Shown one piece after another: positions 9,650 through 37,435 of a DNA stretch of 64,000 nucleotides; within the stretch, counting starts at the first letter, position 1; every line of letters begins with the position of its first letter. The stretch spans positions 67,407 to 131,406 of the forward strand of contig CP011212.1 of assembly GCA_001029715.1 (NCBI GenBank), written 5' to 3'. A program made the translations under genes and the position numbers. A model generated the notes under the pieces. That model was given only the letters and a program-made list of their open reading frames with translations, had not been told where the DNA came from and did no database searches. The DNA comes from a candidate division TM6 bacterium GW2011_GWF2_28_16 (GTDB lineage Bacteria > Patescibacteriota > Microgenomatia > UBA1400 > PJMF01).

Positions 9650-9679
9650 TTTATATTTTGATTATAAACCATTTATCTA

Positions 9680-10099: not shown

Positions 10100-10152
10100 T
10101 GAAAATTATTATATTAGCTATATCGATATGTTTCTAGTGTAAAATAGAGCTA
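10100..10152. promoter_or_regulatory. short divergent promoter region between the pilin array (-) and the ECF sigma factor (+)
   Basis: 53-bp AT-rich intergenic spacer between two divergently oriented starts. No specific boxes assigned. Confidence 0.3.
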
Positions 10153-10713: not shown

Positions 10714-10904
10714 TAGAAAATAATTTTTTAAAGTTACTTAAAGATACTGCCAAAGAACAGAGTTATTTGGGTCAGGAAAAGCTAATTCCAGATCAACTAA
10801 GTGATCTGGCTAATTTTGTTGCCAATCATTTATGGCAAACGGCTTTGTTTTTAGCCTTTTTATCGACGATTTTATTAAATTTTTTAGCCACAATTAGACC
10901 ATGA
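10689..10904 (+). CDS. putative anti-sigma factor (single-pass membrane protein)
   Basis: 71-aa ORF overlapping the 3' end of the ECF sigma gene. Cytoplasmic N-terminus plus one C-terminal TM helix (WQTALFLAFLSTILLNFLATI). Call rests on position and architecture only. Confidence 0.4.
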   Translation: MVRIRNKMIENNFLKLLKDTAKEQSYLGQEKLIPDQLSDLANFVANHLWQTALFLAFLSTILLNFLATIRP

Positions 10905-25599: not shown

Positions 25600-26585
25600 A
25601 AAAAGTGAAGACTTCTGCCCCAGGAAAATTGATGCTTTTTGGTGAACATAGTGTGGTTTTTGGTCATCCTTGTATTGTGACTGCCGTTGATCGTCGTTTA
25701 TCAATTACTGTTGAGGAAAATGGCGAAGAAGTTTTTATTTTAGATGCGCCAGATTTGGGTTTACGAGCTTATTCTAAGCGAATTTGTGATCTTGGTAATA
25801 AAGATTTGCCAAAAGAAGTTAGCTTTATCGAAACTTGCTATAAGCTATTTTTGGAGAAATACCCACAACAAAAAACTATTCATGTTTATAGCAAGAATGA
25901 ATTCAAATCTTCTTATGGTCTTGGTTCAAGTAGTGCTAGCACAGTGGCTTTTGCTAAAGCTTTAAGTGAGTTTTATGAAGTGCCAATGAATAATGATCAG
26001 TTGTTCGATTTGGCTTATCAGACTGTTTTAGAAGTGCAGGGTGTGGCTTCTGGTTTTGACATTGCAGCTGCAATTTGGGGTGGAACGATTTATTACATCA
26101 CTCCTCATGGCAAACTTAGTAAACATAAAACTGTCGAACCAATCAAAATCAAAAACTTGCCTTTGTTAGTTGCCTATACTGGTATTAAAGCTGATACTGC
26201 CACCTTAATTCGAATGGTGCAAAATTTGCACAGTGAAAACAAAGGAACAGTTAATCACATTTTTACCGATATTACTCTTTTGGTAGAACAGGCTAAAAAG
26301 ACTCTTCAACAGCAAGACTGGCCACATCTTGGCTTATTAATGGATGAGAACCAAGCTTTACTACGTAAATTGCAAATTAGTAGCATTGAGCTAGAGAATC
26401 TCATCGCTGCTGGCAAAAGTGCCGGAGCAATGGGAGCCAAGCTCTCTGGAGCTGGAGGCGGTGATTGTATGTTAGCTTTAGTTGATGAAGCTGAGAAAAA
26501 AGCCGTTGCTCAAGAAATTACCAAGGCTGGTGGTAAAATTATTGAGGTGGAGATGAATGCGGAGGGCGTACGTTTGGAAAACTAA
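25596..26585 (+). CDS. mevalonate kinase-like GHMP kinase (paralogue 2; possible phosphomevalonate kinase substitute)
   Basis: APGKLMLFGEHSVVFG, YGLGSSSASTVAFAKAL and C-terminal KLSGAGGGDCMLAL (GHMP motif 3). Confidence 0.7.
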   Translation: MKKVKTSAPGKLMLFGEHSVVFGHPCIVTAVDRRLSITVEENGEEVFILDAPDLGLRAYSKRICDLGNKDLPKEVSFIETCYKLFLEKYPQQKTIHVYSKNEFKSSYGLGSSSASTVAFAKALSEFYEVPMNNDQLFDLAYQTVLEVQGVASGFDIAAAIWGGTIYYITPHGKLSKHKTVEPIKIKNLPLLVAYTGIKADTATLIRMVQNLHSENKGTVNHIFTDITLLVEQAKKTLQQQDWPHLGLLMDENQALLRKLQISSIELENLIAAGKSAGAMGAKLSGAGGGDCMLALVDEAEKKAVAQEITKAGGKIIEVEMNAEGVRLEN

Positions 26586-26694
26586 GTTTCGAGCCAGAGA
26601 TCGCTTGAATAAATACATTTTTTCACGCGCTCAAATGTCTCTAAACTTAGTTTTCCAAAACGTACTTTATTTAATTAAGCAAATTGAAAAAAAT

Positions 26695-27693
26695 ATGAAA
26701 AAAACAACGGTTCAAGCAGGTAGTGATATCGCTTTTGTTAAGTATTGGGGCAAAAAGGATAAAATCCTACGTTTACCAAGCAATGGTAGTATTTCCATGA
26801 TTTTAGATTCTTTGCAGAGCAAAACTACTGTCGAGTTTTTGCCAAATTTAGCTAAGGATGAGATCATAATAGGTGGCGAAGTTGAAGAGGGAGAGGCTTC
26901 TCGTGCCATTAAACATTTGGACAGAATTAGAACTTTAGCCAAAGAAAAAGGATTGATAGATAAAGATATTTTTGCTAAAGTCGTTTCGGAGAATAATTTT
27001 CCCAAGAGCACTGGTCTTTCTAGCTCTGGTTCTGGTTTTGCTGCTTTGACCATGGCTGCCACTAAGGCTATTGGTTTAGATCTTTCAGAAAAAGAATTGT
27101 CTATTTTAGCCAGGCAAGGATCTGGCTCTGCCTGTCGCTGTGTTTGTGGTGGTTTTGTTGAGTGGTTAGATGGTGAAACTTCTGAAGAATCTTATGCACA
27201 AAGCTTTGCTAAGTCAGAAGATTTTGATATTAGAGATTTAGTGGCGATTGTTTCAGAAGATAAAAAGAATTTAAGCTCAAGTGATGGACATGATTTAGCA
27301 GAAAGCAGTTTGTTTTTTAAGGCTCGTCAAGAAAAAATTGATACCAAGTTAGCAGCTGTCAAAAGAGCAATTTTACAAAAAGACTTTGAAACCCTAGGTG
27401 AAATAGTAGAAGCCGAGGCTTTAGAGTTTCACTCAATTTTATTAACCAGTCAGCCAACTATCTTGTTGTTTTATCCGGGAACGATTGAGGTGATGCAGGC
27501 TGTTCGTCAATTGCGTAAGACTGGTGTGCCAGTTTATTTCACTATTAATACCGGCTTCAATGTCCACATTTTGACTTTACCTCAATATGAGAAACAGGTA
27601 GCTGCTGTTTTGCAAAATTTACCAAGTGTGCAGAAAATTATTATCTCAGGAGCAGGTAATCAGCCAGAATATTTAGAAAAACATTTGTTTTAA
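26695..27693 (+). CDS. mvaD: diphosphomevalonate decarboxylase (or phosphomevalonate decarboxylase)
   Basis: SDIAFVKYWGKKD...LPSNGSISM N-terminal signature and GHMP fold. Start placed at the in-frame ATG 26695 (MKKTTVQAG) rather than the overlapping 26557 of the raw ORF. Confidence 0.8.
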   Translation: MKKTTVQAGSDIAFVKYWGKKDKILRLPSNGSISMILDSLQSKTTVEFLPNLAKDEIIIGGEVEEGEASRAIKHLDRIRTLAKEKGLIDKDIFAKVVSENNFPKSTGLSSSGSGFAALTMAATKAIGLDLSEKELSILARQGSGSACRCVCGGFVEWLDGETSEESYAQSFAKSEDFDIRDLVAIVSEDKKNLSSSDGHDLAESSLFFKARQEKIDTKLAAVKRAILQKDFETLGEIVEAEALEFHSILLTSQPTILLFYPGTIEVMQAVRQLRKTGVPVYFTINTGFNVHILTLPQYEKQVAAVLQNLPSVQKIIISGAGNQPEYLEKHLF

Positions 27694-28109
27694 AAACTTG
27701 GTGTCGAACTGCGACTGGCTTCGTATTGCTTAACTACTTCTTGGCAGTAAATATATTTGCCATATTCAAAAGCTTTTTCAGAAATATTTTGCTCGCCATT
27801 TTCGTCAACTCTGACGGCCTCTTGGACAAATTCTTGAGCAACTCCACCAGCCTCTTTGGCTTTTTCTGTCAAAATCTTAATTTGTGAAACACCATTTTCA
27901 CCTAAATTTTTAAAGTCTTCTTGCTTGAAATCAATTTGATCAAATTCAATTTCTTTATCTTTTTGCCAGGGAAGAGTGATACTTTTTGGGAGGCCTTCTT
28001 CTATTTTGGAAAAAATTTCATTATTAAGCCAACCTTTGTTTTTGGCAAATTTATAGGCAAAAACAACTAGAGCTATGGCGATAATAATGGTAAACAATTT
28101 GCGAAGCAT
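27690..28109 (-). CDS. hypothetical membrane-anchored protein
   Basis: 139 aa with an N-terminal TM helix and an acidic soluble domain. No recognisable domain. Confidence 0.4.
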   Translation of the reverse strand: MLRKLFTIIIAIALVVFAYKFAKNKGWLNNEIFSKIEEGLPKSITLPWQKDKEIEFDQIDFKQEDFKNLGENGVSQIKILTEKAKEAGGVAQEFVQEAVRVDENGEQNISEKAFEYGKYIYCQEVVKQYEASRSSTPSF

Positions 28110-28185: not shown

Positions 28186-28261
28186 GGTGCGTGTGCTAGG
28201 ACTCGAACCTAGAACCGCCAAGGTATAAGCTTGGAGCTCTAACCAATTGAGCTACACACGC
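28186..28261 (-). tRNA. tRNA-Ile, apparent anticodon UAU
   Basis: Manual cloverleaf from the reverse complement: acceptor GCGTGTG/CACACGC, D-arm GCTC-AATTGGTTA-GAGC, anticodon stem CCAAG/CTTGG with loop CTTATAC (U33-UAU-A37), T-arm CTAGG-TTCGAGT-CCTAG. Discriminator A then CC; terminal A not encoded. Confidence 0.75.
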
Positions 28262-28303: not shown

Positions 28304-29287
28304 TTATAGAAGTAGTAGCAAGAGTGCGCCAACGCCTAGGGCTCCAAGGCCAGCTTTAATGTAGTTCATCCAATCAGCTGGGCCACTTTCAGTAGGAACG
28401 TTGATTGGGCGCACGATGGTGGTTTCACCATTTGCTAATTTGCATTGACTATCTGTAGGATTGACGTCGAGGCGACATTGACCGCTGTAACAAATATGAC
28501 TAATGTTGCTACAGTCAGCATTGGCATTACAAGTTTCGTTGCAGCCAACAGTGGTAATAACGGTGGTAACAGATGGAGTTGGAGTGCTGGTAGCGGTCAC
28601 AGTAGTAGTTGGAGTTACGGTTGTAGTTACAGTAGTGGTTGGAGTAACAGTTGTAGTAACGGTTGGAGTAACAGTTACGGTTGCTTCACAACAAGTTGTG
28701 CTACTAGGATCGGCGACACATTCATCGAGATAATCTTCATCTGCACAGTATTTAACAATGTTTCCATCGCCATCAGTATCTGAAGTAGAAATACAAACAT
28801 AACCATCTTCGCAGTCATCGCTGTTGGTACAGTCTTTTTCACCACAAGAAAGCAAGTTTTCTTCTGGAGCGGTGCAACAAGAGTCAGTGTTTGGATCATC
28901 TATACAGGCTGTTTTATAATCTTCATCTGCACAATATTTATTGCCATTGTCGGCCTCAATACAAATTAAATTACTGCTACAGTCATCGTCACTTTCGCAA
29001 CCACTCAAACCACAGGTAATTTTATCTGGTTCTGTAACTGTAAATTCAAGAGTACAAGTTTGAGTTTTTTCAATATAAGCAGCTGGCTGAGATTGAGGGG
29101 CAGTTGGGGCGACTGGAGTAGTGTCTTGTTTTTGCGTAATTAAGAAAACACTAACTGCGCCACCAACAAAAATTAGTAGACCCAGCAACATAGCGATCAC
29201 TTTAAAATCGCCTTTTTTCTTCAGAGCAGTTTGTCCTTGCTTTGATTTTACGTAGGTCGCTGGTGTTTCAATTTGTTCTATGTTCAT
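28304..29287 (-). CDS. Cys-rich, Thr-repeat cell-surface protein with N-terminal signal anchor and C-terminal hydrophobic tail
   Basis: N-terminal TM helix. Two copies of a Cys-rich module (C..SGCESDDDCSSNLICIE...KYCADEDY..C..DP....CC). Thr/Val/Pro repeat TVTPTTTVTTTVTPTTTV. C-terminal GLGALGVGALLLLLL. Confidence 0.6.
   Translation of the reverse strand: MNIEQIETPATYVKSKQGQTALKKKGDFKVIAMLLGLLIFVGGAVSVFLITQKQDTTPVAPTAPQSQPAAYIEKTQTCTLEFTVTEPDKITCGLSGCESDDDCSSNLICIEADNGNKYCADEDYKTACIDDPNTDSCCTAPEENLLSCGEKDCTNSDDCEDGYVCISTSDTDGDGNIVKYCADEDYLDECVADPSSTTCCEATVTVTPTVTTTVTPTTTVTTTVTPTTTVTATSTPTPSVTTVITTVGCNETCNANADCSNISHICYSGQCRLDVNPTDSQCKLANGETTIVRPINVPTESGPADWMNYIKAGLGALGVGALLLLLL
28560..28685. 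repeat. imperfect tandem ~24-30-bp coding repeats (Thr/Val/Pro linker)
   Basis: Direct repeats GTTGGAGTAACAGTTGTAGTAACG / GTTGGAGTTACGGTTGTAGTTACAGTAGTG inside the minus-strand surface-protein gene. Confidence 0.6.
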
Positions 29288-29291
29288 TATT

Positions 29292-30683
29292 TTAATTCAC
29301 ATTATCTATCATTGTGCTTGGTGAATTATCCACCATTTCCCAAACTTGGCATTCCGTTCCCCAGCAAATACGACCCTGGACAACGTAATCTCCAAAGCTT
29401 GAAATGGTGTAGGAATCAGATACATTTTTAGCAATTGCGCCACTAGTGTCAGTTAGATCTATCCAAGAGCTCATGCCTGGAGCCCAGATTCTAAATTCAT
29501 AATTAAAGTCAACTCCTTGGTTGCCGACAGCAGTGCAACGGAAGCGCACCTCATCTCCGTCCTTGAGACTATCATCATCGTTTGCTTCCATAGTATTGTT
29601 ATTAGCATCTAGCATATCTATGCTGGCACAAACTGGCATAGCCTGGCTTTCACAACAATTGGCAGTGCTTGGATCAGCTGCGCAAAACAATTGATTTTCT
29701 CCTTTGGCACAAATACCAGTCGATTGAGAGTCGACTGTTACTGTTTGACAAGTAAGACCATTTTGACAGTCAGAATTTTGAGTACAACCAATCACTCCGC
29801 AGGCTAAAAGTTCTGGAGGTGTAGTAGGAGTTGGAGTAGGTGTTCTATTTGGAGGATTAGTTGGAGTAGGGGTTGGTGTGGCGCAATCTGAACAATCAGC
29901 TCCAGCATCACCGCATAAAGCATCACAACTTGAGGCACTGCCTATCACCCACCAGCCAGCGCTACATTGGCAACGCATTAAGCCAGATTCTTCACAGTTT
30001 TCGATTACTGAAGTATTTGGATTGTCGCACCAATCTCCGCCCATGGATTGTTCTGTGCACGGATCTTGATCGGTAACGTAACCGCACATGGTATCGCCAT
30101 TGGCGATTATTCTACAGGTAGTACTAACACATGGTCCACCAGCTACGAGTCTATGCAGATTTGGACCGCAGGCCGCCACAGTTGTGGTTGGAGTAACGGT
30201 CGAACCACCCGTGGGTGTACAGGCACCATCAATTACACGATAGCCAGTAATACATCTTCCACTAGTACCATTACAATATGGATCTCCTTCCATACACATC
30301 TCACTGGCTTGTTGGCGGTTGTCTTGATTTTGTCTGCTAAGTATATAACTAGAAAAAACCCCAACTACCAAGAAAAAAACTATAAGTAAGCCAGCCAATT
30401 TATTATTTGATTTCTTTTTCACTTGAAAAGATGGTTTTTGATCAGTTGAAAGTGGATTTTGAATAGAAACAGTTTCAGCACCTGACTTAACTGCCTCTTT
30501 GAGAGGTTCATTATCTGTAATTGTATTACCGCGATATTCTGGTATTTCTGGTTCTTTAGCAAGATCATTCCAAGGGGAATCAATTTTTTCTGGTTCTTTA
30601 ACAAAGTTATCGGAAGAATCCTCTGCCTTGTCTATCTGGCTTTTTTTATATTTAGCTGGTATAAAATCTCTAGGATTATTCAT
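29292..30683 (-). CDS. Cys-rich secreted/surface protein with PT-rich linker
   Basis: N-terminal signal anchor (LAGLLIVFFLVVGVFSSYIL), numerous Cys, PTPTPTNPPNRTPTPTPTTP linker. 463 aa. Confidence 0.6.
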   Translation of the reverse strand: MNNPRDFIPAKYKKSQIDKAEDSSDNFVKEPEKIDSPWNDLAKEPEIPEYRGNTITDNEPLKEAVKSGAETVSIQNPLSTDQKPSFQVKKKSNNKLAGLLIVFFLVVGVFSSYILSRQNQDNRQQASEMCMEGDPYCNGTSGRCITGYRVIDGACTPTGGSTVTPTTTVAACGPNLHRLVAGGPCVSTTCRIIANGDTMCGYVTDQDPCTEQSMGGDWCDNPNTSVIENCEESGLMRCQCSAGWWVIGSASSCDALCGDAGADCSDCATPTPTPTNPPNRTPTPTPTTPPELLACGVIGCTQNSDCQNGLTCQTVTVDSQSTGICAKGENQLFCAADPSTANCCESQAMPVCASIDMLDANNNTMEANDDDSLKDGDEVRFRCTAVGNQGVDFNYEFRIWAPGMSSWIDLTDTSGAIAKNVSDSYTISSFGDYVVQGRICWGTECQVWEMVDNSPSTMIDNVN

Positions 30684-30787
30684 TATTAGACAAAGAAAAT
30701 ACTTCTTCTTTTAAGAATAACCTATTTATAATTGTCTTTGCAAGAGGATATTAGTGTGTTATCTTGCGATTTTAGAGATCATCAACA

Positions 30788-31588
30788 ATGAAATTTTTAA
30801 AATTAAATACAAAACAAAGATATTGGCTAGATTTTATTCTTGTGATGACGCAAAAGGAGATAAAGGCAAGGTATAAGAGAACTTTTTTAGGTCTTTTGTG
30901 GGTAATTTTTAATCCATTCTTGCAGATGCTAATAATTGGTTTGATTTTTCAATTTTTTGTTCCTATGCAAATTGAGAATTATTTTCTTTATCTTTTTGCT
31001 GGTCTTTTACCTTGGAATTTCTTTTCAATGGCGCTTTTGCGCGCGACACCTCTTTTAGTGCAGGAAAGATCTTTGATTCAAAAAGCTGCTTTTCCTAGAG
31101 AATTAATGGTTGTGGCAGTGGTCATGGCAAATTTATTTCATACTTTAGTGGCTAGTTCAGTATTTTTGCTATTTTTAGCTTTTCTAAAGACGAGTTTTTT
31201 TGCTGGTGTCCTATTTTTTATATCTAGCTTTTTCTTAATCTTTTTAATACTTATCTTTTTATTATTTTTTACTTTGGCGACTTGTTTAGTTATTTCTGCA
31301 TTATATGTAAAGATAAGAGATTTAATTTTCATTATCCAACTTTCAATTCAATTGCTATTTTATGCTGTGCCAGTTATCTATAGTCTAGAGATGTTACCGG
31401 AATTTTTTAGAAATCTACTTTATCTAAATCCATTGGTTAGCTATATTGAGGTTTTTAGAGCGGCTGCTTTAAATAGTGTTTTCAATTATAAAATGGCAAT
31501 TTATGCCGGTCTTTTTTCCATTTTTTTTCTATTTTTTGCTCTGCAATTTTTTCGAAAAGAAAGCAAAAATTTTGATGATTGGTTTTAA
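30788..31588 (+). CDS. ABC-2 type transporter permease (Wzm/TagG-like)
   Basis: N-terminal KEIKARYKRTFLGLLWVIFNPFLQMLIIGLIF motif and six TM helices. Translationally coupled to the following ATPase. Confidence 0.85.
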   Translation: MKFLKLNTKQRYWLDFILVMTQKEIKARYKRTFLGLLWVIFNPFLQMLIIGLIFQFFVPMQIENYFLYLFAGLLPWNFFSMALLRATPLLVQERSLIQKAAFPRELMVVAVVMANLFHTLVASSVFLLFLAFLKTSFFAGVLFFISSFFLIFLILIFLLFFTLATCLVISALYVKIRDLIFIIQLSIQLLFYAVPVIYSLEMLPEFFRNLLYLNPLVSYIEVFRAAALNSVFNYKMAIYAGLFSIFFLFFALQFFRKESKNFDDWF

Positions 31589-32649
31589 ATTTTAAAATGA
31601 AAAACAGTAAAAATAAAAAAATAGCTATAAATATAGAAAACGCTAGTAAACGCTATTTCTTGCGATCTGCAAAAGCTAAGAAAAAAGAAACTTTTTTTGC
31701 CTTAAAAGATATAAATATAAAAATATTTAAGGGAGAAAAAGTAGCTATTCTTGGTGACAATGGGGCTGGCAAGACTACTTTGCTCAAAGTAATGACTGGA
31801 ATAGCAGAACCAACTTGTGGGAAAGTGAATAGTATTGGTAAGCTTGTTTCCTTAATTGATATCACGGCTGGTTTTCATCCTGAGTTTTCAGGTCGTGAAA
31901 ATATTTATTTCAATGGCATTCTTTTAGGAATGAATCTTTCTTCAATTAAAAAATTAGAGCAAGAAATAATTAATTTTTCAGGTATAGAAAAATTTATAGA
32001 TCAAGCTCTTTATACCTATTCTTCAGGTATGGTTTTGCGGCTTGGTTTTTCTATTGCTATTCACAGCGATCCAGATATTTTAATTTTGGATGAGGAGGTG
32101 GTGGTGGGAGATCAGGATTTTCAGAAAAAGGCCTATGATGAAATTGAGAAGATTTTTGCTGAAGGTAAAACCATTGTTGTTTGTAGTCATGTTTTACCTT
32201 TACTGAGTAGACTTTGTGAGCGCTTCATCTGGCTAGATAAAGGCAAAGTAAAAATGGATGGAGGTAAAGAGGTTGTTATTGAATATAAAAAGAATCGAAG
32301 TAAATTGGATATAGAAAAAATTGGCAAGATTAAAAATGAAAAAAAATTTTTTCAATTTCTGCAATCTTTGCCAATCGGAGAGAGGTTTATTGTAGAAGCA
32401 GTCAGTGGCAGTATGGAGCCACTTATCTTAAAGGGCGATGAGGTAAGAGTTGAAAGGTGTTCACTTAAAAATATAAGAGTTGGCAACATAATTGCTTATT
32501 GGAGCGATGAATTTAAAAATATCATTGTTCATAGAATTTATAAGAAAAGCTCTAAGGGGATTTTCTTGACTAGAGGAGATAGTAACTATATTGTAGATGA
32601 GATGCCAGTCACAGAAGATATTTTTTTAGGTAAAGTTATTAATTTTTAA
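31579..32649 (+). CDS. ABC transporter ATP-binding protein (Wzt/TagH-like) with C-terminal Sec11/SipW-type signal-peptidase-like domain
   Basis: Walker A GDNGAGKTTLLK, signature YSSGMVLRLGF, Walker B ILILDEEVVVGD. C-terminal ~100 aa carry EAVSGSMEPLILKGDEV, IVHRIYK and LTRGDSNYIVDE, the three boxes of Sec11/SPC18/SipW (S26B) peptidases. Confidence 0.8.
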   Translation: MVLNFKMKNSKNKKIAINIENASKRYFLRSAKAKKKETFFALKDINIKIFKGEKVAILGDNGAGKTTLLKVMTGIAEPTCGKVNSIGKLVSLIDITAGFHPEFSGRENIYFNGILLGMNLSSIKKLEQEIINFSGIEKFIDQALYTYSSGMVLRLGFSIAIHSDPDILILDEEVVVGDQDFQKKAYDEIEKIFAEGKTIVVCSHVLPLLSRLCERFIWLDKGKVKMDGGKEVVIEYKKNRSKLDIEKIGKIKNEKKFFQFLQSLPIGERFIVEAVSGSMEPLILKGDEVRVERCSLKNIRVGNIIAYWSDEFKNIIVHRIYKKSSKGIFLTRGDSNYIVDEMPVTEDIFLGKVINF

Positions 32650-32934
32650 ATGAGGATAAATATGAAAATATTATATATTCGAGACAATGATCTTTATTTT
32701 AAGGAGGAAGACGGCAAAATATTGGTTTTAAAAAAGAACAAAAAAGAAATTGTGGAATTAAATGAGGTTGGCTCTTTGATTTGGAAAGCTTTGAAGACGA
32801 AGAAGTCTATTGATGCTTTGGTGAAAAAAATAAATTCAGCTTTTGAGGGGGCAGATTCTAAGGAGGTAAAAAAAGATGTTGAGGAGTTTATTCTCAAGTG
32901 TTTAAAAGATTCAATAATAGAAAAAATAAATTAG
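32650..32934 (+). CDS. PqqD-like protein (RiPP recognition element family)
   Basis: 94 aa. Pattern LYF.EEDGKILVL....EIVELNEVGSLIWKAL.TKKSIDALVKKINSAF....KEVKKDVEEFILKCLKDSII follows the PqqD/PF05402 consensus. Confidence 0.65.
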   Translation: MRINMKILYIRDNDLYFKEEDGKILVLKKNKKEIVELNEVGSLIWKALKTKKSIDALVKKINSAFEGADSKEVKKDVEEFILKCLKDSIIEKIN

Positions 32935-32938
32935 AGTT

Positions 32939-33922
32939 ATGAAAAAAATTAGCAGACAAGAGTTTGATTATTTAATTAAAAAAAGAAAGCTTGAAGATCC
33001 AAAGAAAATTAAAGCTTTTGAAAAAATACTAAAAGATGAGCGCGGTTATGTTTTCAAAATGCCTAAAAGAGGTTCGAATGTTATTTTAATGGCTTCTGGT
33101 GGACTTGATTCAATGGTTGTTTGGGGAATTTTAATGAAAGAATATGGCTTGAATGTTTATCCGATTACTTTTGACAGAGGTGAAAAAAAAAGAAACAGGG
33201 AATTTGCTGCTTTTAAATATTTTGATAAATTTTATCAGAAAAAATTTCCTAAAAATTATAGAAAATTTTTAGATTTAGACGTAGGACAAGATCAGATTTC
33301 AATAAAAATTGAAGACGGTGTCAAAGATCTACGAGAAGAAACATTATTAAATAATTTTAGAGATGACTTAATGTTTTTTAACCCCTCTTTAGGTGTTTTT
33401 ACTATCTTGCCACTTTTTGCACGTAGTTATGCCATGTATCTAAATGCAATTAAAGGTCTAAAAATTAATACTATTTTTTGTGCCGTCACAGCCAATGATG
33501 GGGAATTAATTGCTCATCAAACCTTAACTTCATTGAGGTCTATTATGTGCAACATGTGTGTTTCAATCAAAGATTATTCTTGGCAGTTTTTGTCAATTTG
33601 TTTAGAGCCAGAAATTAATTCTTTTATAAAGAAATCAGATCTTGTTAAGTGGGGAGAAGATAATAGTTTACCACTAGAAAAATCTTGGAGTTGTTACCAT
33701 GCGAAAAAGTATCAATGTGGTGGAGATAACTGTATTGCTTGTGAAGCGAGAAGAAAAGCATATTTAGAGGCAAAAATAGAAGATAGAACTATTTATAAAA
33801 GCCTTGCAGATCAGGAGATCCTAATTAAAAAAGCGAAAAAAACTTTAAGAAAGTATCTTTCTAGAACAAAAAAGAACTTAATAAACACAGTTAAACGTTT
33901 TTTTGAAGATACGATAAGATAG
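32939..33922 (+). CDS. QueC-family PP-loop ATPase (7-cyano-7-deazaguanine synthase-like) with N-terminal extension
   Basis: PP-loop ILMASGGLDSMVV. ITFDRGEKKRNRE (cf. QueC VTFDYGQRHRAE). C-terminal Zn motif SCYHAKKYQCGGDNCIACEARRKAY (QueC SCY..x..CGxCxxCxxR). ~45 extra N-terminal residues. Confidence 0.7.
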   Translation: MKKISRQEFDYLIKKRKLEDPKKIKAFEKILKDERGYVFKMPKRGSNVILMASGGLDSMVVWGILMKEYGLNVYPITFDRGEKKRNREFAAFKYFDKFYQKKFPKNYRKFLDLDVGQDQISIKIEDGVKDLREETLLNNFRDDLMFFNPSLGVFTILPLFARSYAMYLNAIKGLKINTIFCAVTANDGELIAHQTLTSLRSIMCNMCVSIKDYSWQFLSICLEPEINSFIKKSDLVKWGEDNSLPLEKSWSCYHAKKYQCGGDNCIACEARRKAYLEAKIEDRTIYKSLADQEILIKKAKKTLRKYLSRTKKNLINTVKRFFEDTIR

Positions 33923-34067
33923 AACTATCAAGGGGAAATCTAAGAATGCTGTTTAGAACTAAATTTATTCAGCTACTACTAAGATAGCTTTTAGATCAAT
34001 AATTCTAAGTTGAGGTTTTTTATATTTTTGCATTGTAATTTAATGTTAGATAATTTTTAAGTTGTTG

Positions 34068-34784
34068 TCAACGATTAGATTGCTTTTGAATTATGCCCAG
34101 TCCAGAGCCTAAATAATTTACTTCAATCTTATTTTTGTTTGTTTTTTCTTCCCAAAGTTTCCAGACTCCGTATTTTCCTTCTGGCAAAGTTTCTTTTATA
34201 GAAATATCGTGCAGAAGCATAAGACCTCCTTCATGGAGCATCGGCCAGAAGAGTTTAAAATCTGTTTTTATTCCTTCATAGGAATGGTCTCCGTCTATAT
34301 AGATATATTCATAGCTCATGTTTTTATATTTTTTGGCAAATTTTTGCGTAGTTGTTACAAATAGTTGGATATTATTTTCTAAGCCAAAATTTTTGAAATG
34401 ATCTTTGCCTTCTTGAGTTTTCCAAAAACCTTTTCCGGTCCATGAGCTTTTACCTTCTTTTTTTATTTCATCGCCAAATCCCGCATCAACAAAGTCGACT
34501 TTGCCAAAACCATTGTCATGACAAGCTTGAGCTAGAACAGCTGGTATATATCCATATCGGGATCCAATGCAAAGAATTTTCTTTGCTTTTATTTGTCTGA
34601 GTAGGCCATAGTGAATCCAACCATATCCTAGGTCAGCATTTTTGATATTGGATTCGTGTCCAAATTCATCTGCTTCAAAAAAATTCATTAATTCGGTAAT
34701 TCTTAAATCATTGGAGAGCTTTTTACTTTTTTCTTGCTGATGGAATATTAAATATTTTAAGATTTTTGTTTTGATTCCAAACAT
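34068..34784 (-). CDS. class I SAM-dependent O-methyltransferase (TylF/MycF/CmcI-like)
   Basis: YIDGDHSYEGIKTDFKLFWPMLHEGGLMLLHDI motif typical of Methyltransf_24-type sugar/macrolide O-MTs. 238 aa. Confidence 0.6.
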   Translation of the reverse strand: MFGIKTKILKYLIFHQQEKSKKLSNDLRITELMNFFEADEFGHESNIKNADLGYGWIHYGLLRQIKAKKILCIGSRYGYIPAVLAQACHDNGFGKVDFVDAGFGDEIKKEGKSSWTGKGFWKTQEGKDHFKNFGLENNIQLFVTTTQKFAKKYKNMSYEYIYIDGDHSYEGIKTDFKLFWPMLHEGGLMLLHDISIKETLPEGKYGVWKLWEEKTNKNKIEVNYLGSGLGIIQKQSNR

Positions 34785-34789
34785 AGGTT

Positions 34790-35917
34790 TTAATTCTTTA
34801 AAATTTCGCTAATTTTTTTAATTTTATTATACCAACTATTTTCAATGGCTAATTGTCTAGCCTCTTTTCCATTTTTTTCAATCCAGCTATTTTTTTCAAT
34901 TGTTTCTATATGCTTTTTCCATTCTTGAGCATTTTTTCCTATTTTAATGAATTTTTTGAATTTATTATCAGTTAGTTCTTTTATTTCTGTAGAAATTATT
35001 GGTTTTTCAAAATAAAGATACTCAAAAGTTTTCATTGGATAGCAATTAGCATTAAATGGATAACTGACGTCATAGGGTATTATGCAGAGGTCAAATTGAG
35101 ATATTAATTGAGGAATTTTATCTTTTTTTTGAGATTCAATTTTTTTTACATTGGAGAAAGATAAAAATTTTTTAATTCGTTTTCTTTTATTTTCTTTTAT
35201 TTTTAAGTCTCTTTTAATTGGTCCAATAAAAGTGAAATTAGTTTCTGGCATTAACTTGACTAAATTTATCATTAGATCGTAGTCAATGCGGTCGCTTATG
35301 GCTCCAATAAAACCAACGTTTATTTTCTTCTTCTTTGAGAATTTTATGGGCGATTTTTCAAACATTTGCAAATCAAAGCCCTGAGACACTAAATGAAGCT
35401 TTTTTTTATTATATTTTGCCACTTCTTTTTTTAGGGTCTTTGAATTAACAAAAATATAGTTTGCTTTATCTAAATTTGTTTTATATTTTTTGAAATCAAA
35501 CCAATCAACTATATCTAAGATCAGCTCTCTTTTTTTCAAGTTATGCTTTTCTATTTCCACTGTAAGATCAAAGATCCACTCATATGTTTTTTTATTTATC
35601 GATAGAAAGAAAATAATAAACTCAGTAATAAAATAATTAATTTTGTTATTTAGTTTTGAAAATAAATCTTTTGTAAAGAGAAATTTAATTTTCTTTGGAA
35701 AAAAGTAAAAATATTTATAATAAAAAATGTCATTTTTTTTACTTAATAAAAAGAATTCTTGTTGAAAAAGCTTTTTCCAACTCAAGGAGAAATTTTTTTC
35801 AATAACTAAGACTTTATTATTATTTTGTGTTAAGATCCGAATAGTTTGTAATATGAAATCGCAAATTTCTTGAGGATTTTCATGAGTGGGAACAATAATA
35901 AAACTATTTCTAAGCAT
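34790..35917 (-). CDS. putative glycosyltransferase (GT-B, GT4-like C-terminal domain)
   Basis: C-terminal half (INVGFIGAISDRIDYDLMINLV...FIGP..) resembles the Glycos_transf_1 domain. N-terminal half is divergent. Confidence 0.4.
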   Translation of the reverse strand: MLRNSFIIVPTHENPQEICDFILQTIRILTQNNNKVLVIEKNFSLSWKKLFQQEFFLLSKKNDIFYYKYFYFFPKKIKFLFTKDLFSKLNNKINYFITEFIIFFLSINKKTYEWIFDLTVEIEKHNLKKRELILDIVDWFDFKKYKTNLDKANYIFVNSKTLKKEVAKYNKKKLHLVSQGFDLQMFEKSPIKFSKKKKINVGFIGAISDRIDYDLMINLVKLMPETNFTFIGPIKRDLKIKENKRKRIKKFLSFSNVKKIESQKKDKIPQLISQFDLCIIPYDVSYPFNANCYPMKTFEYLYFEKPIISTEIKELTDNKFKKFIKIGKNAQEWKKHIETIEKNSWIEKNGKEARQLAIENSWYNKIKKISEILKN

Positions 35918-37435
35918 CGACTATATATTAGCAAAGTTTTTGATTTATTTTTTATCAAAAAAAATGCTTTTTCTAAACAAGAAAAAATTTCTATACTTAT
36001 ATCTATTTTGTTTTTAGTTTCAGTTTTCTTCATTCCAAACAATAAATTTTTATTCATGGTTACTGCAACTTACATACTTTCTTTATTTATCGTGAACAAG
36101 TCAATTTATGAAACCGTCTTTTATGCTTTTTTACCACTGAGTTTAGTTTTAGTTGGTCAAGGTTATTCTTATATTGCTATTCCTGGTGAAGCAATAAAAT
36201 CAGAGGGCTATGAAGAGGGAAAAATTTTAAATTATTTTTTTTCTCCATTTATTGTTTTGTTGATTTTAATTAGTTTTTTATTTTTTGTTAATTTAACTCA
36301 AAAACTTTTTAGAAAAAAATCTTTTATTAAATTTAAGCCATTTATTATTTCTTTTTTATTCTTTTTTCTTTTTTCTTTTTTTTCTGCAATTAGCAATGAT
36401 TCTTTTCCAAAATTGTCCTTTCTTTACTTTTTAAATGATTTTCTATTTTTTATTTCTTGTTTTTTTATTGCGCTGTTTATTTCAGATAGCAAGGAAAAAA
36501 CAAATAAAATGAATTTGATTCTATTAAATTTGATAATTTTATCTGTTTTTTTAGGGATGGTTGTGATTTTTCAATTTATAAACAAATCACCCTTAGGAAT
36601 AATAGCTGAAATGAGCCACGAAGTCCCATTTTTTGGAGGTGGAGCAGATGAAGACAGTTCTTTATTTAGACCGATAGGAATTTTTACTCACGCTAATATT
36701 CTGGCTAACTATTTAAGCAATTTATTTTTTTCTATATTTTTATTGAAAGCTTATTTAATAGAAAAAAAAGAATTACTCATTAATAAAAAGTTTATCAATA
36801 TTGGATTGCTTCTCATTTTTATTTCTATATTCTCAACTCTCTCAAGAGCAGTTTATTTAGCTTTGTTTTTATCAGCATTGATTTATGTGTTTATTTTTAG
36901 AAAAGAAATATCCGCAAGCGGTAAGAAAATAGTTAAAAAAATATTGAAAGTTAAATATTTAATTTTTCTTTTACCTTTGATGTGGAATGTAGCTGTAAGA
37001 ATAATTTACAGTTTCAATAGCTTTTATCAAGAGGGAGGGGTTGGAGTTCGGGAAAAACTAACTATAGAGAGCTTAGCTCTTTTAAGAAGAAATTTTTTTT
37101 ATGGAGTGGGAACTGGCATGTTTATCCCATCTTTGTTTAGGGAAAATCCCATTGGAATCATAAGCGAATTTCCGGAGTCAGTTCATAATGGTATTTTATT
37201 AAATTTAATTGAAAATGGGTTTCTTTCTTTTTTCTTCTTTTTGATGGTTTATTTTTTATTTTTCAAAGCTTTAATAGCTTTAAAAGCTAATAAGAAAATC
37301 ATCGTAATTTCTTTTCTAGCAATTTTTTCCCAATTAGTAATAAGTTTCTTTCATCCATTCACAAACACCGTTACTCTATATACTTTTATTATGATTTTGA
37401 TAATATATGATCTATATGCAATTGAAAAAAAATAA
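35870..37435 (+). CDS. O-antigen polymerase/ligase family membrane protein (Wzy_C-like)
   Basis: ~12 TM helices and a periplasmic loop with HNGILLNLIENGFLSFFFF (Wzy_C H....E.G motif). The true start may be an internal Met. Confidence 0.55.
   Translation: MRIFMSGNNNKTISKHRLYISKVFDLFFIKKNAFSKQEKISILISILFLVSVFFIPNNKFLFMVTATYILSLFIVNKSIYETVFYAFLPLSLVLVGQGYSYIAIPGEAIKSEGYEEGKILNYFFSPFIVLLILISFLFFVNLTQKLFRKKSFIKFKPFIISFLFFFLFSFFSAISNDSFPKLSFLYFLNDFLFFISCFFIALFISDSKEKTNKMNLILLNLIILSVFLGMVVIFQFINKSPLGIIAEMSHEVPFFGGGADEDSSLFRPIGIFTHANILANYLSNLFFSIFLLKAYLIEKKELLINKKFINIGLLLIFISIFSTLSRAVYLALFLSALIYVFIFRKEISASGKKIVKKILKVKYLIFLLPLMWNVAVRIIYSFNSFYQEGGVGVREKLTIESLALLRRNFFYGVGTGMFIPSLFRENPIGIISEFPESVHNGILLNLIENGFLSFFFFLMVYFLFFKALIALKANKKIIVISFLAIFSQLVISFFHPFTNTVTLYTFIMILIIYDLYAIEKK

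What the first reader, a model, noticed from the sequence alone, without database searches (positions are those of the whole stretch)
32341..32649. Sec11/SipW-type signal-peptidase catalytic domain fused to the cytoplasmic ATPase of a Wzm/Wzt ABC exporter
Residues ~255-356 of the ATPase align motif-for-motif with eukaryotic/archaeal-type signal peptidase I (S26B). EAVSGSMEPLILKGDEV matches Sec11 VLSGSMEPAFQRGDIL (catalytic Ser). NIRVGNIIAYW…IVHRIYK matches QVGDVVVY…IVHRV (catalytic His). IFLTRGDSNYIVDE matches LLTKGDNNAGND. There is no TM anchor; the domain is appended to a soluble NBD, so it would act on the cytoplasmic face. That topology is the opposite of a signal peptidase and is analogous to the C39 peptidase domains of bacteriocin exporters. 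Wzt proteins normally carry a glycan-binding C-terminal domain here.
Basis: seen in the sequence. Interest (0 to 1): 0.8.

Follow-up and report, generated by a model that had tools for sequence, protein, structure and literature searches.

The report
Peptide-cutting domain built into an exporter
A membrane-anchor-free relative of signal peptidase is fused to the ATPase of an export pump in a candidate-phyla-radiation bacterium, next to a peptide-binding chaperone, a QueC-like enzyme and a previously unannotated 22-residue peptide gene, so it most likely trims a small modified peptide as it is exported.

Summary
Residues 248-350 of the ABC ATPase (31597..32649, +) match archaeal/eukaryotic-type signal peptidase I above the curated cut-off. 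They have the S24/S26 fold, no membrane anchor, and Ser/His/Asp invariant in 28 orthologues. The fusion is in frame in independent assemblies, so it is not an artefact.

The next genes encode a PqqD-family peptide-recognition protein (RRE) and a QueC-like PP-loop ATPase. An unannotated 22-codon gene (33965..34033, -) encodes MQKYKKPQLRIIDLKAILVVAE, which carries the YxxPxL motif that RREs bind. The peptide, the RRE, the QueC-like enzyme and an ABC-2 pump recur in every sufficiently long locus that carries the peptidase, whether it is fused or free-standing.

A 2026 paper showed that an anchor-free SipW-like peptidase (LppS) is an RRE-dependent leader peptidase in Bacillota. This is therefore a new variant of a known kind: the same peptidase type, built into a Wzt/TagH-type exporter, in an undescribed RiPP-like cluster of Patescibacteria. 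Cleavage site, product chemistry and transported substrate are inferred, not shown.

The parts
30788..31588 (+). ABC-2 type permease (Wzm-like), partner of the fused ATPase
   Evidence: PF01061 ABC2_membrane 57.8 bits. The best NCBIfam hit is Wzm/RfbD at 66 bits, far below its 380-bit cut-off. It lies adjacent to the ATPase in all related loci.
31597..32649 (+). ABC ATPase fused to a SipW/Sec11-like peptidase domain (350 aa; alternative TTG start at 31579 gives 356 aa)
   Evidence: 28 full-length orthologues at 45-71% identity, all 336-357 aa. Full-length AF2 model pLDDT 85.5, with a disordered linker at residues 236-241.
31597..32292 (+). Nucleotide-binding domain, Wzt/TagH type
   Evidence: Walker A GDNGAGKTT, signature YSSGM, Walker B LDE and H-loop His are all invariant. 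Foldseek top hits are TagH, WzmWzt and TarGH.
32338..32646 (+). Anchor-free S26B-like peptidase domain: N-terminal helix (FFQFLQSL) followed by a beta-barrel core
32410..32412 (+). Codon of the predicted nucleophile Ser272 (SGSMEP)
   Evidence: Invariant in 28 orthologues. Aligns with the SEC11 SGSMEP serine.
32530..32532 (+). Codon of the predicted general base His312 (VHRI)
   Evidence: Invariant His-Arg. The S24 enzymes have Lys at this position (L012 repressor).
32578..32598 (+). Asp328 (GDSN box) to Asp334, the two conserved Asp residues
   Evidence: D328 is invariant and D334 is conserved in at least 90% of sequences. The His-to-D334 spacing is 22 residues. That is comparable with LppS H68-D93 (PMC13381572) and SEC11A H96-D122 (own knowledge).
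32650..32934 (+). PqqD-family protein, a discrete RiPP recognition element; its ATG directly abuts the TAA stop of the fusion gene (TAAATG)
   Evidence: PF05402 45.2 bits (cut-off 23.4). The best NCBIfam hit is the lasso-peptide PqqD chaperone. It is present in every locus that carries the peptidase.
32939..33922 (+). QueC-like PP-loop ATPase (SGGLDS; C-terminal Cys cluster), candidate peptide-modifying enzyme
   Evidence: PF06508 53.6 bits, but only 35 bits against the QueC equivalog (cut-off 150). Found next to PqqD in all loci long enough to show it. In L017 the homologue P0298 carries its own C-terminal PqqD domain, 27.1 bits.
33965..34033 (-). Unannotated 22-codon gene: MQKYKKPQLRIIDLKAILVVAE, candidate precursor peptide with a YxxPxL leader motif
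   Evidence: Found. There is one homologue per locus in 18 distinct loci. The family HMM gives E 1e-8 to 6e-14 for members, with the next best hit at 0.5, among 14,106 ORF segments. There are 6 synonymous and 3 non-synonymous codon differences against L021.
34043..34071 (-). Promoter-like element TTGACA-17-TAACAT, 9 nt upstream of the peptide ATG
   Evidence: It is the best consensus match in 30500..36100, at 10 of 12 positions. The same element is conserved upstream of the peptide gene in L021, L001 and L006. A consensus match is not proof of function.
34068..34784 (-). Methyltransf_24 family SAM-dependent methyltransferase, recurrent cluster member
   Evidence: PF13578 66.3 bits. One or two copies occur in every related locus that extends far enough.

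Best explanation
The C-terminal domain is an active, cytoplasmic, SipW/Sec11-like serine peptidase (Ser272-His312-Asp334). I propose it serves as the processing peptidase of a ribosomal-peptide (RiPP-like) pathway and is physically built into the pathway's exporter.

Proposed sequence of events:
1. The 22-residue precursor (33965..34033, -) is bound through its YKKPQL motif by the PqqD-family RRE (32650..32934).
2. The RRE presents the precursor to the QueC-like PP-loop enzyme and the methyltransferase for modification.
3. The RRE also presents it to the peptidase domain, whose N-terminal helix docks on the RRE-leader sheet, as shown for LppS.
4. Cleavage near the small-residue stretch 14-18 residues after the Tyr releases a very short C-terminal product.
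5. Because the peptidase hangs under the NBD dimer of the ABC-2 pump, cleavage is coupled in space to export.

This is the logic of peptidase-containing bacteriocin exporters, built from unrelated parts.

Shown: domain identity, missing anchor, conservation of catalytic residues, a conserved fusion, conserved gene partnership, and existence and conservation of the peptide gene.

Inferred: that the peptide is the substrate, RRE dependence, the cut site, the chemistry of the QueC-like step, and that the pump carries the peptide product.
For: Catalytic Ser, His and two Asp, together with all ATPase motifs, are invariant or nearly so across 28 orthologues.

The fusion is conserved in independent assemblies. 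It also appears in 15 clusters at 50% identity among the top 151 representatives. Another 85 are free-standing anchor-free forms, and 65 of those keep the N-terminal helix. 43 are classical TM-anchored forms, of which only 1 matches the helix.

Rosetta-stone evidence:
- In L015/L016 a 152-aa free-standing homologue (P0127) sits beside PqqD, the QueC-like gene and the peptide. An unfused ABC ATPase and ABC-2 permease lie in the same cluster.
- In L029 the peptidase is free-standing next to PqqD.
- L014 and L027/L028 are divergent fused forms with the same neighbours.
- Every locus with the peptidase has PqqD, and has the QueC-like gene wherever the contig is long enough.

RRE fusions tie the partners to peptide chemistry. 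In L017 the QueC-like enzyme carries a PqqD domain, and the peptidase-like domain is fused to NTP_transf_5.

The peptide gene occurs once per locus. It has an invariant Y-x-x-P, a hydrophobic residue at position 11, and an SD-like sequence or conserved promoter-like element upstream. Synonymous substitutions exceed non-synonymous in three of the four closest pairs compared; L003/L010 is the exception at 4:6.

Experimental precedent comes from PMC13381572:
- LppS is a TM-less SipW homologue with catalytic S29/H68/D93.
- It cleaves a YxxP-leader precursor only when the discrete RRE LppB is present.
- It contacts the RRE-leader sheet through its N-terminal helix.
- Those clusters also lie in capsule loci.
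Against: - No biochemical data exist for this family.
- I could not compare the domain directly with the LppS sequence, because it was not available to the tools.
- The NBD and permease are of the glycan/teichoic-acid exporter type, and the cluster is embedded among glycosyltransferases and a Wzy_C protein. The pump's cargo could therefore be a glycopolymer rather than the peptide.
- L019/L020 carry the QueC-like gene, a PLP decarboxylase, the methyltransferase and the ABC pair without peptidase, RRE or peptide. Those enzymes can therefore work outside a peptide pathway, or those loci are incomplete.
- The residues at the inferred -1 position are often Val, Ile or Leu rather than the Ala, Gly or Ser typical of signal peptidases.
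- The implied product of 1-7 residues is unusually small.
- The NJ tree of domains is poorly resolved, so how many times fusion occurred is unknown.
Confidence: 0.65

Rival explanations
1. The pump exports a cell-surface glycopolymer, as Wzm/Wzt and TagGH do. The peptidase domain, RRE and small peptide regulate or prime that export. For example, the peptide could be a carrier or cap for the glycan, or peptide cleavage could gate the transporter. In this reading the peptide is not the cargo.
For: The NBD is closest to Wzt, TagH and TarH in both sequence and structure. The cluster lies in a glycan locus with GT1, GT2, Wzy_C and an epimerase. No other ABC-2 pair exists in the 64-kb window. Wzt proteins normally carry a substrate-recognising C-terminal domain at this position (own knowledge). 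LPP and paeninodin clusters also sit in capsule loci, and LPPs are predicted to be glycosylated (PMC13381572).
Against: The ABC pair travels with the peptide, RRE and QueC-like genes in loci whose wider neighbourhood differs (L014, L015, L027). ABC-2 pumps do export RiPPs elsewhere, for example McbEF and AlbCD (own knowledge). Nothing in the data links the peptide to a sugar.
Confidence: 0.17
2. The peptidase domain processes the cytoplasmic N-terminal tails of the two cysteine-rich membrane proteins encoded just upstream (28304..29287 and 29292..30683, - strand), rather than the 22-mer.
For: Both proteins are syntenic with the cluster in the Pacebacteria-type loci. They have a cytoplasmic N-terminal segment before a single TM helix. 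They share a motif PA(T/K)Y(V/K)K(S/K) that loosely resembles the YxKP leader.
Against: The motif lacks the Pro of YxxP. No such genes were called next to the cluster in the divergent loci that keep the peptidase, RRE, QueC-like gene and peptide (L014, L015, L027); I did not run a homology search for them there. The synteny is seen only among close relatives, where it carries little weight.
Confidence: 0.07
3. The domain is not a working protease on a separate substrate. It is either a peptide-binding pseudo-enzyme, like Streptococcus pyogenes SipA, or a LexA/UmuD-like self-cleaving switch that detaches from the NBD.
Against: Ser, His and both Asp are invariant or nearly invariant over 28 orthologues, whereas SipA lacks the catalytic residues (own knowledge). 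His replaces the Lys of the S24 Ser-Lys dyad. The linker (alignment columns 245-262) is variable and holds no conserved Ala-Gly or Cys-Gly self-cleavage site. The S26B profile scores three times higher than S24.
Confidence: 0.05
4. The fusion is an assembly or frameshift artefact that joins a separate peptidase gene to the ATPase gene.
For: None, beyond the fact that free-standing homologues exist.
Against: The same in-frame architecture appears in at least 28 proteins from different samples and sources (NCBI, JGI, ENA, Logan) at 45-100% identity. It also appears in 13 further divergent cluster representatives. The linker has conserved residues (EYKKxR), and the reading frame holds no stop.
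Confidence: 0.01

Closest known systems
LppS, the SipW-like (archaeal-type signal peptidase I) leader peptidase of linear polyphosphorylated peptides in Bacillota (Popov et al., Nat Commun 2026, PMC13381572)
   Same: Both are anchor-free S26B-like domains with an N-terminal helix just before the catalytic Ser. Free-standing homologues here have the Ser at residues 26-31, against Ser29 in LppS. Both have a Ser/His/Asp triad with similar spacing and an adjacent discrete PqqD-type RRE. Both have a precursor with a [Y/W]xxPx[L/V/I/F/A] motif. Both clusters are embedded in a polysaccharide locus.
   Different: Here the peptidase is fused to the C-terminus of an ABC NBD. The partners are a QueC-like PP-loop enzyme and Methyltransf_24, not an HprK-like kinase and an NTP transferase. 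The pump is ABC-2/Wzt type rather than MsbA-like. Precursors are 22-42 residues rather than 35-200. The hosts are Patescibacteria rather than Bacillota. No experiment has been done on this family.
Peptidase-containing ABC transporters (PCATs: ComA, LagD, PCAT1) with an N-terminal C39 cysteine peptidase domain
   Same: A cytoplasmic leader peptidase is part of the exporter polypeptide, so cleavage and export of a ribosomal peptide are spatially coupled.
   Different: The protease fold and catalytic type are unrelated: a papain-like Cys protease against an S26 Ser/His protease. The position differs: N-terminal to the TMD against C-terminal to a separate NBD subunit. The transporter class differs: type IV half-transporter against ABC-2 with a separate permease. 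The peptides here have no double-glycine site. An RRE is involved here.
Wzm/Wzt O-antigen and TagGH/TarGH teichoic-acid exporters
   Same: The NBD shares up to 40% identity and 2.4 A rmsd with A. aeolicus Wzt. The YSSGM signature, a separate ABC-2 permease and the glycan-locus context also match.
   Different: The C-terminal carbohydrate-binding domain of Wzt is replaced by a peptidase domain. Scores are well below the equivalog cut-offs (172 against 400; 169 against 538). The conserved partners are peptide-pathway genes.
Lasso-peptide B1/B2 system (PqqD-type RRE plus transglutaminase-like Cys protease) with an Asn-synthetase-like cyclase and ABC exporter
   Same: A discrete RRE binds a YxxP leader and presents it to a leader peptidase. 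An ATP-dependent PP-loop enzyme acts on a carboxylate. An ABC exporter is part of the cluster.
   Different: The protease is Ser/His S26-like rather than a Cys protease. The PP-loop enzyme is QueC-like rather than AsnB-like. The predicted cores are too short for a lasso fold.
Cap9 and QatC, QueC-family enzymes repurposed for protein modification in anti-phage defence (10.1101/2025.04.06.647259; PMC13329287)
   Same: These show that the QueC fold can ligate a carboxylate to a protein amine, which gives a chemical precedent for a QueC-like enzyme acting on a peptide.
   Different: Those enzymes work with TGT-like or Qat partners in defence systems, not with an RRE, a peptidase and a pump. The 2026 family survey does not mention PqqD, RiPPs or peptidases at all.

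Membership tests
Peptidase family S26B (Sec11 / SipW / archaeal signal peptidase I) | Significant match to the family profile above the curated threshold | tested here: met
   TIGR02228 scores 72.6 bits against a cut-off of 51.85, E 3e-20. SEC11A/C are the best PDB sequence hits, E about 1e-10.
Peptidase family S26B (Sec11 / SipW / archaeal signal peptidase I) | Ser nucleophile in SxSMxP, His (not Lys) as general base, and conserved Asp residues in and after the GDxN box | tested here: met
   S272, H312 and D328 are invariant, and D334 is conserved in at least 90% of 28 orthologues.
Peptidase family S26B (Sec11 / SipW / archaeal signal peptidase I) | S24/S26 beta-barrel fold | tested here: met
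Peptidase family S26B (Sec11 / SipW / archaeal signal peptidase I) | N-terminal transmembrane anchor placing the active site on the outer (trans) face of the membrane | tested here: not met
   No hydrophobic segment is present (max KD19 1.35). The domain follows a soluble NBD. It is therefore a homologue of the family, not a signal peptidase in the functional sense.
LppS-type RRE-dependent SpI-like RiPP leader peptidases (PMC13381572) | Anchor-free SpI-like domain with an N-terminal helix preceding the catalytic Ser | tested here: met
   The model has a helix at residues 2-8 of the domain. The helix is conserved (F4, G13, F16). 65 of 85 free-standing and 13 of 15 fused representatives match it, against 1 of 43 TM-anchored forms.
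LppS-type RRE-dependent SpI-like RiPP leader peptidases (PMC13381572) | Co-localised discrete RRE (PqqD family) | tested here: met
   It is the next gene in the window and is present in all peptidase-bearing loci.
LppS-type RRE-dependent SpI-like RiPP leader peptidases (PMC13381572) | Precursor peptide with a [Y/W]xxPx[L/V/I/F/A] leader motif | tested here: met
   The motif YKKPQL occurs in the window peptide. 18 distinct loci carry one such gene each, and most show a [L/V/I/F] residue two after the Pro; L014, L027 and L017 do not.
LppS-type RRE-dependent SpI-like RiPP leader peptidases (PMC13381572) | Core partners: HprK-like kinase, NTP transferase, MsbA-like transporter | tested here: not met
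   The window and its relatives have a QueC-like enzyme, Methyltransf_24 and an ABC-2 pump instead. NTP_transf_5 appears only in L017, fused to the peptidase-like domain.
LppS-type RRE-dependent SpI-like RiPP leader peptidases (PMC13381572) | Direct sequence relationship to LppS (WP_029196374.1) and RRE-dependent cleavage | not tested
   I did not obtain the LppS sequence, and I did not open the paper's supplementary files. A cleavage assay is experimental.
Wzm/Wzt and TagGH glycopolymer ABC exporters | NBD of the Wzt/TagH subfamily with a separate ABC-2 permease | tested here: met
   The best sequence and structure matches are Wzt, TagH and TarH. The permease gene is adjacent. Scores fall below the equivalog cut-offs, so this is subfamily-level membership only.
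Wzm/Wzt and TagGH glycopolymer ABC exporters | C-terminal carbohydrate-binding domain on Wzt, and a glycopolymer as cargo | tested here: not met
   The C-terminal domain is a peptidase homologue. The cargo cannot be tested with these tools.
Peptidase-containing ABC transporters (PCAT, C39) | N-terminal C39 cysteine peptidase on a TMD-NBD half-transporter, and a double-glycine leader | tested here: not met
   No C39 match was found. The peptidase is C-terminal to a stand-alone NBD. None of the 18 peptides has a GG, GA or GS processing motif. The resemblance is functional only.
Peptidase family S24 (LexA / UmuD / CI) | Ser-Lys dyad and a self-cleavage site in the linker | tested here: not met
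   His312 occupies the Lys position. The linker is variable, without a conserved Ala-Gly. PF00717 scores 21.4 bits in the full protein, below the 23.3 cut-off, and 23.7 for the domain alone.

The most novel reading that the evidence does not exclude
The locus defines an undescribed RiPP class of candidate-phyla-radiation bacteria with three unusual features.
1. The precursors are minimal, at 22-30 residues. The part downstream of the RRE-bound leader is only about 3-7 residues, often x-x-Glu, with Glu/Asp fixed 19 residues after the Tyr.
2. An RRE-guided QueC-like PP-loop enzyme installs a new carboxylate-directed modification. This could be amidation, nitrile formation, or conjugation of an amine. 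The amine could be supplied by the PLP decarboxylases and aminopropyltransferase-like proteins that recur in the clusters.
3. The product is released and expelled in one step by a glycan-type ABC-2 exporter that has acquired its own Ser/His leader peptidase. That makes it a convergent counterpart of PCAT exporters.
Probability: 0.35. Interest if true: 0.85.

Novelty: new variant of a known kind. Interest (0 to 1): 0.7.

Why it matters
- It would be a second, independent way in which bacteria have welded a leader peptidase to an ABC exporter. It uses a Ser/His signal-peptidase fold on a Wzt-type ATPase instead of a Cys protease on a half-transporter.
- It extends the anchor-free SipW-like RiPP peptidase, reported in 2026 for Bacillota only, to Patescibacteria and to a different biosynthetic cluster. 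In the literature I searched I found no description of RiPP pathways of this kind in Patescibacteria.
- It points to QueC-like enzymes as RRE-guided peptide-modifying enzymes. The 2026 survey of the QueC family contains no occurrence of 'PqqD', 'RiPP' or 'peptidase'.
- It supplies a concrete, very small substrate (a 22-mer), which makes the proposed activities directly testable in vitro.
- For annotation, these proteins are currently labelled only as polysaccharide or teichoic-acid transporter ATPases. The QueC-like partner is labelled 7-cyano-7-deazaguanine synthase, which is probably wrong.

Tried and rejected
- **Word-indexed homologue search:** searching with the C-terminal 121 residues alone found only one protein. 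The exhaustive profile search was needed.
- **Collection scans:** scans of genome and metagenome collections with the domain alignment used the single pattern SMEP[LFC][IL][LI]KG and returned only 8 and 6 loci. Two of these were unrelated S24/S26 proteins, L012 and L013.
- **AFDB fold search:** the library was not available.
- **Literature searches:** combining PqqD, QueC and signal peptidase, or CPR and RiPP terms, gave nothing relevant. The RRE-Finder and structure-based RRE papers mention neither S24/S26 nor QueC. A search for a described Wzt-peptidase fusion found nothing.
- **Self-cleaving LexA-like switch:** considered and rejected, because there is no conserved cleavage site and no Lys.
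- **Frameshift artefact:** considered and rejected.
- **The 75-aa ORF called in L004:** rejected as the true gene. Only its last 30 codons are conserved with the other loci.
- **The 42-43-aa ORF beside the permease in L019/L020:** it is unrelated to the peptide family.
- **Timing of the fusion:** an NJ tree of 86 domains scattered the fused forms among free-standing ones. Its branches are too long to say whether fusion happened once or several times.
Full report
**1. The observation**

The likelier start is ATG 31597, which gives a 350-residue protein identical to database protein P0001. Numbering below follows that start.

- Residues 1-232 are an ABC nucleotide-binding domain. Pfam ABC_tran scores 72 bits. 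The best NCBIfam matches are the galactan exporter Wzt (172 bits) and the teichoic-acid exporter TagH (169 and 168 bits), all below the equivalog cut-offs.
- A full-length AlphaFold2 model (pLDDT 85.5) has TagH, Aquifex WzmWzt, S. aureus TarGH and M. abscessus Wzm-Wzt as nearest solved structures. Identity reaches 40% with rmsd 2.4 A over the NBD.
- The last 102 residues alone score 72.6 bits (E 3e-20) against TIGR02228, archaeal-type signal peptidase I, whose curated cut-off is 51.85. They score 32.8 bits against SipW, 20.4 against bacterial signal peptidase I and 23.7 against Pfam S24.
- A profile of 19 orthologous domains finds human SEC11C and SEC11A as the best solved relatives (E 7e-11 and 2e-10). 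The SGSMEP, VHR and KGDxN blocks align.
- The fold is therefore that of clan S24/S26. The S26B assignment rests on the profile scores and on His312 standing where S24 enzymes have Lys.
- The protein has no hydrophobic segment (maximum 19-residue hydropathy 1.35).

**2. The fusion is not an artefact, and the active site is conserved**

Twenty-seven further proteins of 336-357 residues from NCBI, JGI, ENA and Logan assemblies cover at least 89% of the query (26 of them at least 95%) at 44-71% identity. The following are invariant in their alignment:
- Walker A (GDNGAGKTT), the YSSGM signature, Walker B plus the catalytic Glu, and the H-loop His.
- S270, S272, M273, E274 and P275.
- H312 and R313.
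- G327 and D328.

D334 is conserved in at least 90% of sequences. The linker between the two domains is variable and has no conserved Ala-Gly, which argues against LexA-type self-cleavage.

An exhaustive profile search of 1.84 billion cluster representatives gave 753 hits at E <= 1e-10. I classified the top 151:

| Form | Count | Match the short N-terminal helix |
|---|---|---|
| Fused to an ABC NBD | 15 | 13 |
| Free-standing, no hydrophobic segment (105-190 aa) | 85 | 65 |
| Classical N-terminal membrane anchor | 43 | 1 |
| Other C-terminal domains attached | 7 | not counted |
| N-terminally truncated fragment of a fused form (P0138) | 1 | not counted |

Anchor-free SipW-like peptidases are thus a large group of their own, and the window protein is one fused member.

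**3. The surroundings**

The window is from Candidatus Pacebacteria bacterium GW2011_GWF2_38_9 (Patescibacteria). The neighbouring QueC-like protein is 100% identical to UT13_C0001G0077 on an 853-kb contig. Related loci come from Pacebacteria and Microgenomatus MAGs.

The gene order in the window is:
1. ABC-2 permease (30788..31588).
2. The fused ATPase.
3. A PqqD-family protein, whose ATG abuts the TAA of the ATPase gene (32650..32934; PF05402 45 bits; the best NCBIfam hit is the lasso-peptide PqqD chaperone).
4. A QueC-like PP-loop ATPase (32939..33922). It has an SGGLDS motif and a C-terminal Cys cluster, but scores only 35 bits against the true QueC model, whose cut-off is 150.
5. On the opposite strand, a Methyltransf_24 methyltransferase and a GT1-like protein, followed by Wzy_C, GT2, GT1 and epimerase genes.

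The set of ABC-2 permease, ABC ATPase, peptidase, PqqD, QueC-like enzyme and Methyltransf_24 recurs in every related locus long enough to show it. A PLP-dependent decarboxylase (PF00282 or PF02784) often accompanies it. In L015/L016 and L029 the peptidase is a free-standing protein of 152-164 residues. In L015 it sits beside PqqD and the QueC-like gene, while an unfused 245-residue ABC ATPase and its permease lie in the same cluster. That is a Rosetta-stone relationship between peptidase and pump.

In L017 the QueC-like enzyme itself ends in a PqqD domain (27.1 bits, above the cut-off). There the peptidase-like domain is fused to an NTP_transf_5 nucleotidyltransferase. Another representative fuses it to an aminopropyltransferase-like domain.

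**4. A missed gene**

I searched six-frame translations for a PqqA/lasso-like leader motif. This revealed one tiny ORF per locus, always beside PqqD or the QueC-like gene.

In the window it is 33965..34033 on the - strand, inside the 146-bp gap between the QueC-like and methyltransferase genes. It encodes MQKYKKPQLRIIDLKAILVVAE. Eighteen distinct loci carry a homologue of 22-42 residues. Examples are MKKYTKPSLKVKDIKVSLIYVE, MKKYNKPVLKKAKIKISLAVAEAI, MQEYIKPEDKVVTIKVTAAVIE, MKKQLKKYVKPELKKNKVKINFAFAASK and MKKHYTAPRFIVKKVNASLIMIEQ.

Evidence that this is a real gene:
- An HMM of the family scores its members at E 1e-8 to 6e-14 among 14,106 ORF segments. The next best segment scores 0.5. This is partly circular, but it shows one clean hit per locus.
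- Window versus L021 differs at 6 synonymous and 3 non-synonymous codons.
- Upstream there is either an SD-like GGA(A/G) stretch or, in the window's clade, a conserved TTGACA-17-TAACAT element 9 nt before the ATG.

Counting the Tyr as position 1:
- Y1 and P4 are invariant.
- Position 6 is mostly L, V, I or F.
- Positions 11, 13 and 15 are hydrophobic, which fits a strand.
- Position 16 is Ala in half of the peptides.
- Position 19 is Glu or Asp in 9 of 18, and is often the last residue.

**5. Comparison with what is known**

Popov et al. (Nat Commun, May 2026, PMC13381572) reported the following:
- Homologues of SipW occur in RiPP clusters of Bacillota.
- About 75% of the homologues they collected sit next to a discrete RRE.
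- One of them, LppS, has catalytic S29, H68 and D93, and therefore no anchor.
- LppS removes the leader of 'linear polyphosphorylated peptides' only when the RRE LppB is present.
- Their precursors carry YxxPxVLxHQxIxFET, with cleavage 16 residues after the Tyr.
- The N-terminal helix of LppS contacts the RRE-leader sheet.
- The clusters often lie in capsule loci.
- They state that such peptidases had not been described in RiPP pathways before.

The window domain shares the missing anchor, the pre-catalytic helix, the triad spacing, the RRE neighbour, the YxxPx[L] motif and even the glycan-locus setting. In the free-standing P0127 the residues are S31, H71 and D95. In the window they are S272, H312 and D334.

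It differs in four ways:
- It is fused to an NBD.
- Its partners are QueC-like and Methyltransf_24 enzymes, not an HprK-like kinase and an NTP transferase.
- The pump is Wzt/ABC-2 type, not MsbA-like.
- The precursors are much shorter, and the hosts are Patescibacteria.

I could not align it with LppS itself.

QueC-family enzymes were recently shown to ligate a carboxylate to a protein amine in type IV CBASS (10.1101/2025.04.06.647259). A 2026 survey of the family mentions neither PqqD nor RiPPs.

**6. Most likely mechanism**

*Shown:* an apparently active Ser/His/Asp peptidase domain on the cytoplasmic ATPase of an ABC-2 pump. It is in a conserved partnership with an RRE, a PP-loop enzyme, a methyltransferase and a mini-gene that encodes an RRE-type leader.

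*Inferred:*
- The RRE binds YKKPQL and presents the peptide first to the QueC-like enzyme and methyltransferase, then to the peptidase domain.
- If the LppS 'ruler' holds, the cut falls after position 16, for example ...KAILV|VAE or ...KISLA|VAEAI.
- If the classical small -3/-1 rule holds, it falls after position 18, for example VVA|E, AVA|EAI or AFA|VAK.
- Either way the released C-terminal piece is only 1-7 residues (15 in L017). This is reminiscent of small-molecule RiPPs.
- The conserved Glu19 or the C-terminal carboxylate is an obvious target for a carboxylate-activating PP-loop enzyme.
- The recurrent PLP decarboxylases and aminopropyltransferase-like proteins could supply an amine.
- Placing the peptidase under the NBD dimer would couple cleavage to export, as the C39 domain does in PCAT exporters.

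I give this overall reading 0.65. The exact cut site and chemistry are much less certain.

**7. Rivals**

- The pump may still carry a glycopolymer, with the peptide system as an accessory (0.17). The NBD type and the locus favour this. The co-travel of the pump with the peptide genes in otherwise different neighbourhoods argues against it.
- The two upstream cysteine-rich membrane proteins share an N-terminal PA(T/K)Y(V/K)K motif and could be substrates (0.07). They lack the Pro, and no such genes were called in the divergent loci.
- A pseudo-enzyme or self-cleaving switch is unlikely, given the conserved triad and the variable linker (0.05).
- An artefact is excluded.
- One caveat for the modification model: L019/L020 keep the QueC-like gene, decarboxylase, methyltransferase and pump without peptidase, RRE or peptide.

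**8. Verdict**

The peptidase type has a fresh experimental precedent, so this is a new variant of a known kind rather than a new category.

In the literature I searched, the following do not appear to be described:
- The fusion to a Wzt-type ATPase.
- The RRE-linked QueC-like enzyme.
- The minimal precursors.
- The occurrence in candidate-phyla-radiation bacteria.

They are directly testable with a 22-residue substrate. Interest 0.7.

Noticed in passing
window 33965..34033 (-): An unannotated 22-codon gene (MQKYKKPQLRIIDLKAILVVAE) lies in the gap between the QueC-like and methyltransferase genes. It is conserved as one copy per locus in 18 related loci, and a conserved promoter-like element sits 9 nt upstream, suggesting a leaderless or near-leaderless mRNA.
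   Followed up: yes
window 28304..29287 (-) and 29292..30683 (-): Two cysteine-rich proteins with no Pfam match. Each has a cytoplasmic N-terminal tail, one TM helix and Thr/Pro-rich linkers. The 327-aa protein ends in a hydrophobic GLGALGVGALLLLLL tail that resembles a C-terminal sorting signal. Both share an N-terminal PA(T/K)Y(V/K)K motif and are syntenic with the cluster in Pacebacteria-type loci.
   Followed up: partly
window 28186..28261 (-): A tRNA-Ile with anticodon TAT (UAU), an uncommon bacterial way of reading AUA, lies between the cysteine-rich protein genes and a conserved 139-aa membrane protein (27690..28109).
   Followed up: no
L017 687..1952 and 3773..4981: In a divergent locus the QueC-like enzyme (P0298, 421 aa) carries its own C-terminal PqqD domain, and the SipW-like domain is fused N-terminally to an NTP_transf_5 nucleotidyltransferase. 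A radical SAM gene and an Asn-synthase fragment lie nearby. The candidate precursor is MKKGAKVLKKTYVKPARREISVNLYKIKAVEFEDIILAVEAT (510..638, -).
   Followed up: partly
P0157 (402 aa): The same anchor-free SipW-like domain is fused to a spermidine-synthase/aminopropyltransferase-like domain. The 296-aa protein next to the free-standing peptidase in L015 (440..1330, -) also looked like this methyltransferase fold by eye; it has no Pfam hit on record and was not scanned. Together with the recurrent Orn/Arg or group II PLP decarboxylases, this hints at amine or polyamine chemistry.
   Followed up: partly
L019/L020 5041..10569: The QueC-like gene, a PLP decarboxylase, Methyltransf_24 and an unfused ABC ATPase with its ABC-2 permease occur together without any peptidase, PqqD or YxxP mini-gene. 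They lie beside DAHP-synthase-like, DHQ-synthase, DHQase and AMP-binding genes that also flank the cluster in L003.
   Followed up: partly
L012 5506..6273: A prophage CI-like repressor (HTH plus S24 domain) in Ruoffia tabacinasalis carries the near-identical motif GDSMEPLILKGDEV but has Lys (CKKF) where the window protein has His. The motif alone therefore does not distinguish S24 from S26B.
   Followed up: yes
window 26557..27693 (+) and upstream: Mevalonate-pathway genes sit immediately upstream of the cluster, as judged from the Pfam hits in the syntenic loci L001, L003 and L004. These include a diphosphomevalonate-decarboxylase-like protein, GHMP kinases and a thiolase. The arrangement is conserved in the Pacebacteria-type loci.
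   Followed up: no
L027 5314..5849 and 9318..10820; L028 4337..5839: In one divergent locus a YafQ/ParE-like toxin pair is inserted between the permease and the fused ATPase gene, and a DDE transposase is inserted beside the methyltransferase. This shows the cluster tolerates insertions without losing the core genes.
   Followed up: no
window 32939..33922 (+): Public records name this protein and its relatives '7-cyano-7-deazaguanine synthase'. It scores only 35 bits against the QueC equivalog (cut-off 150) and always sits next to an RRE, so that name is probably a mis-annotation.
   Followed up: partly
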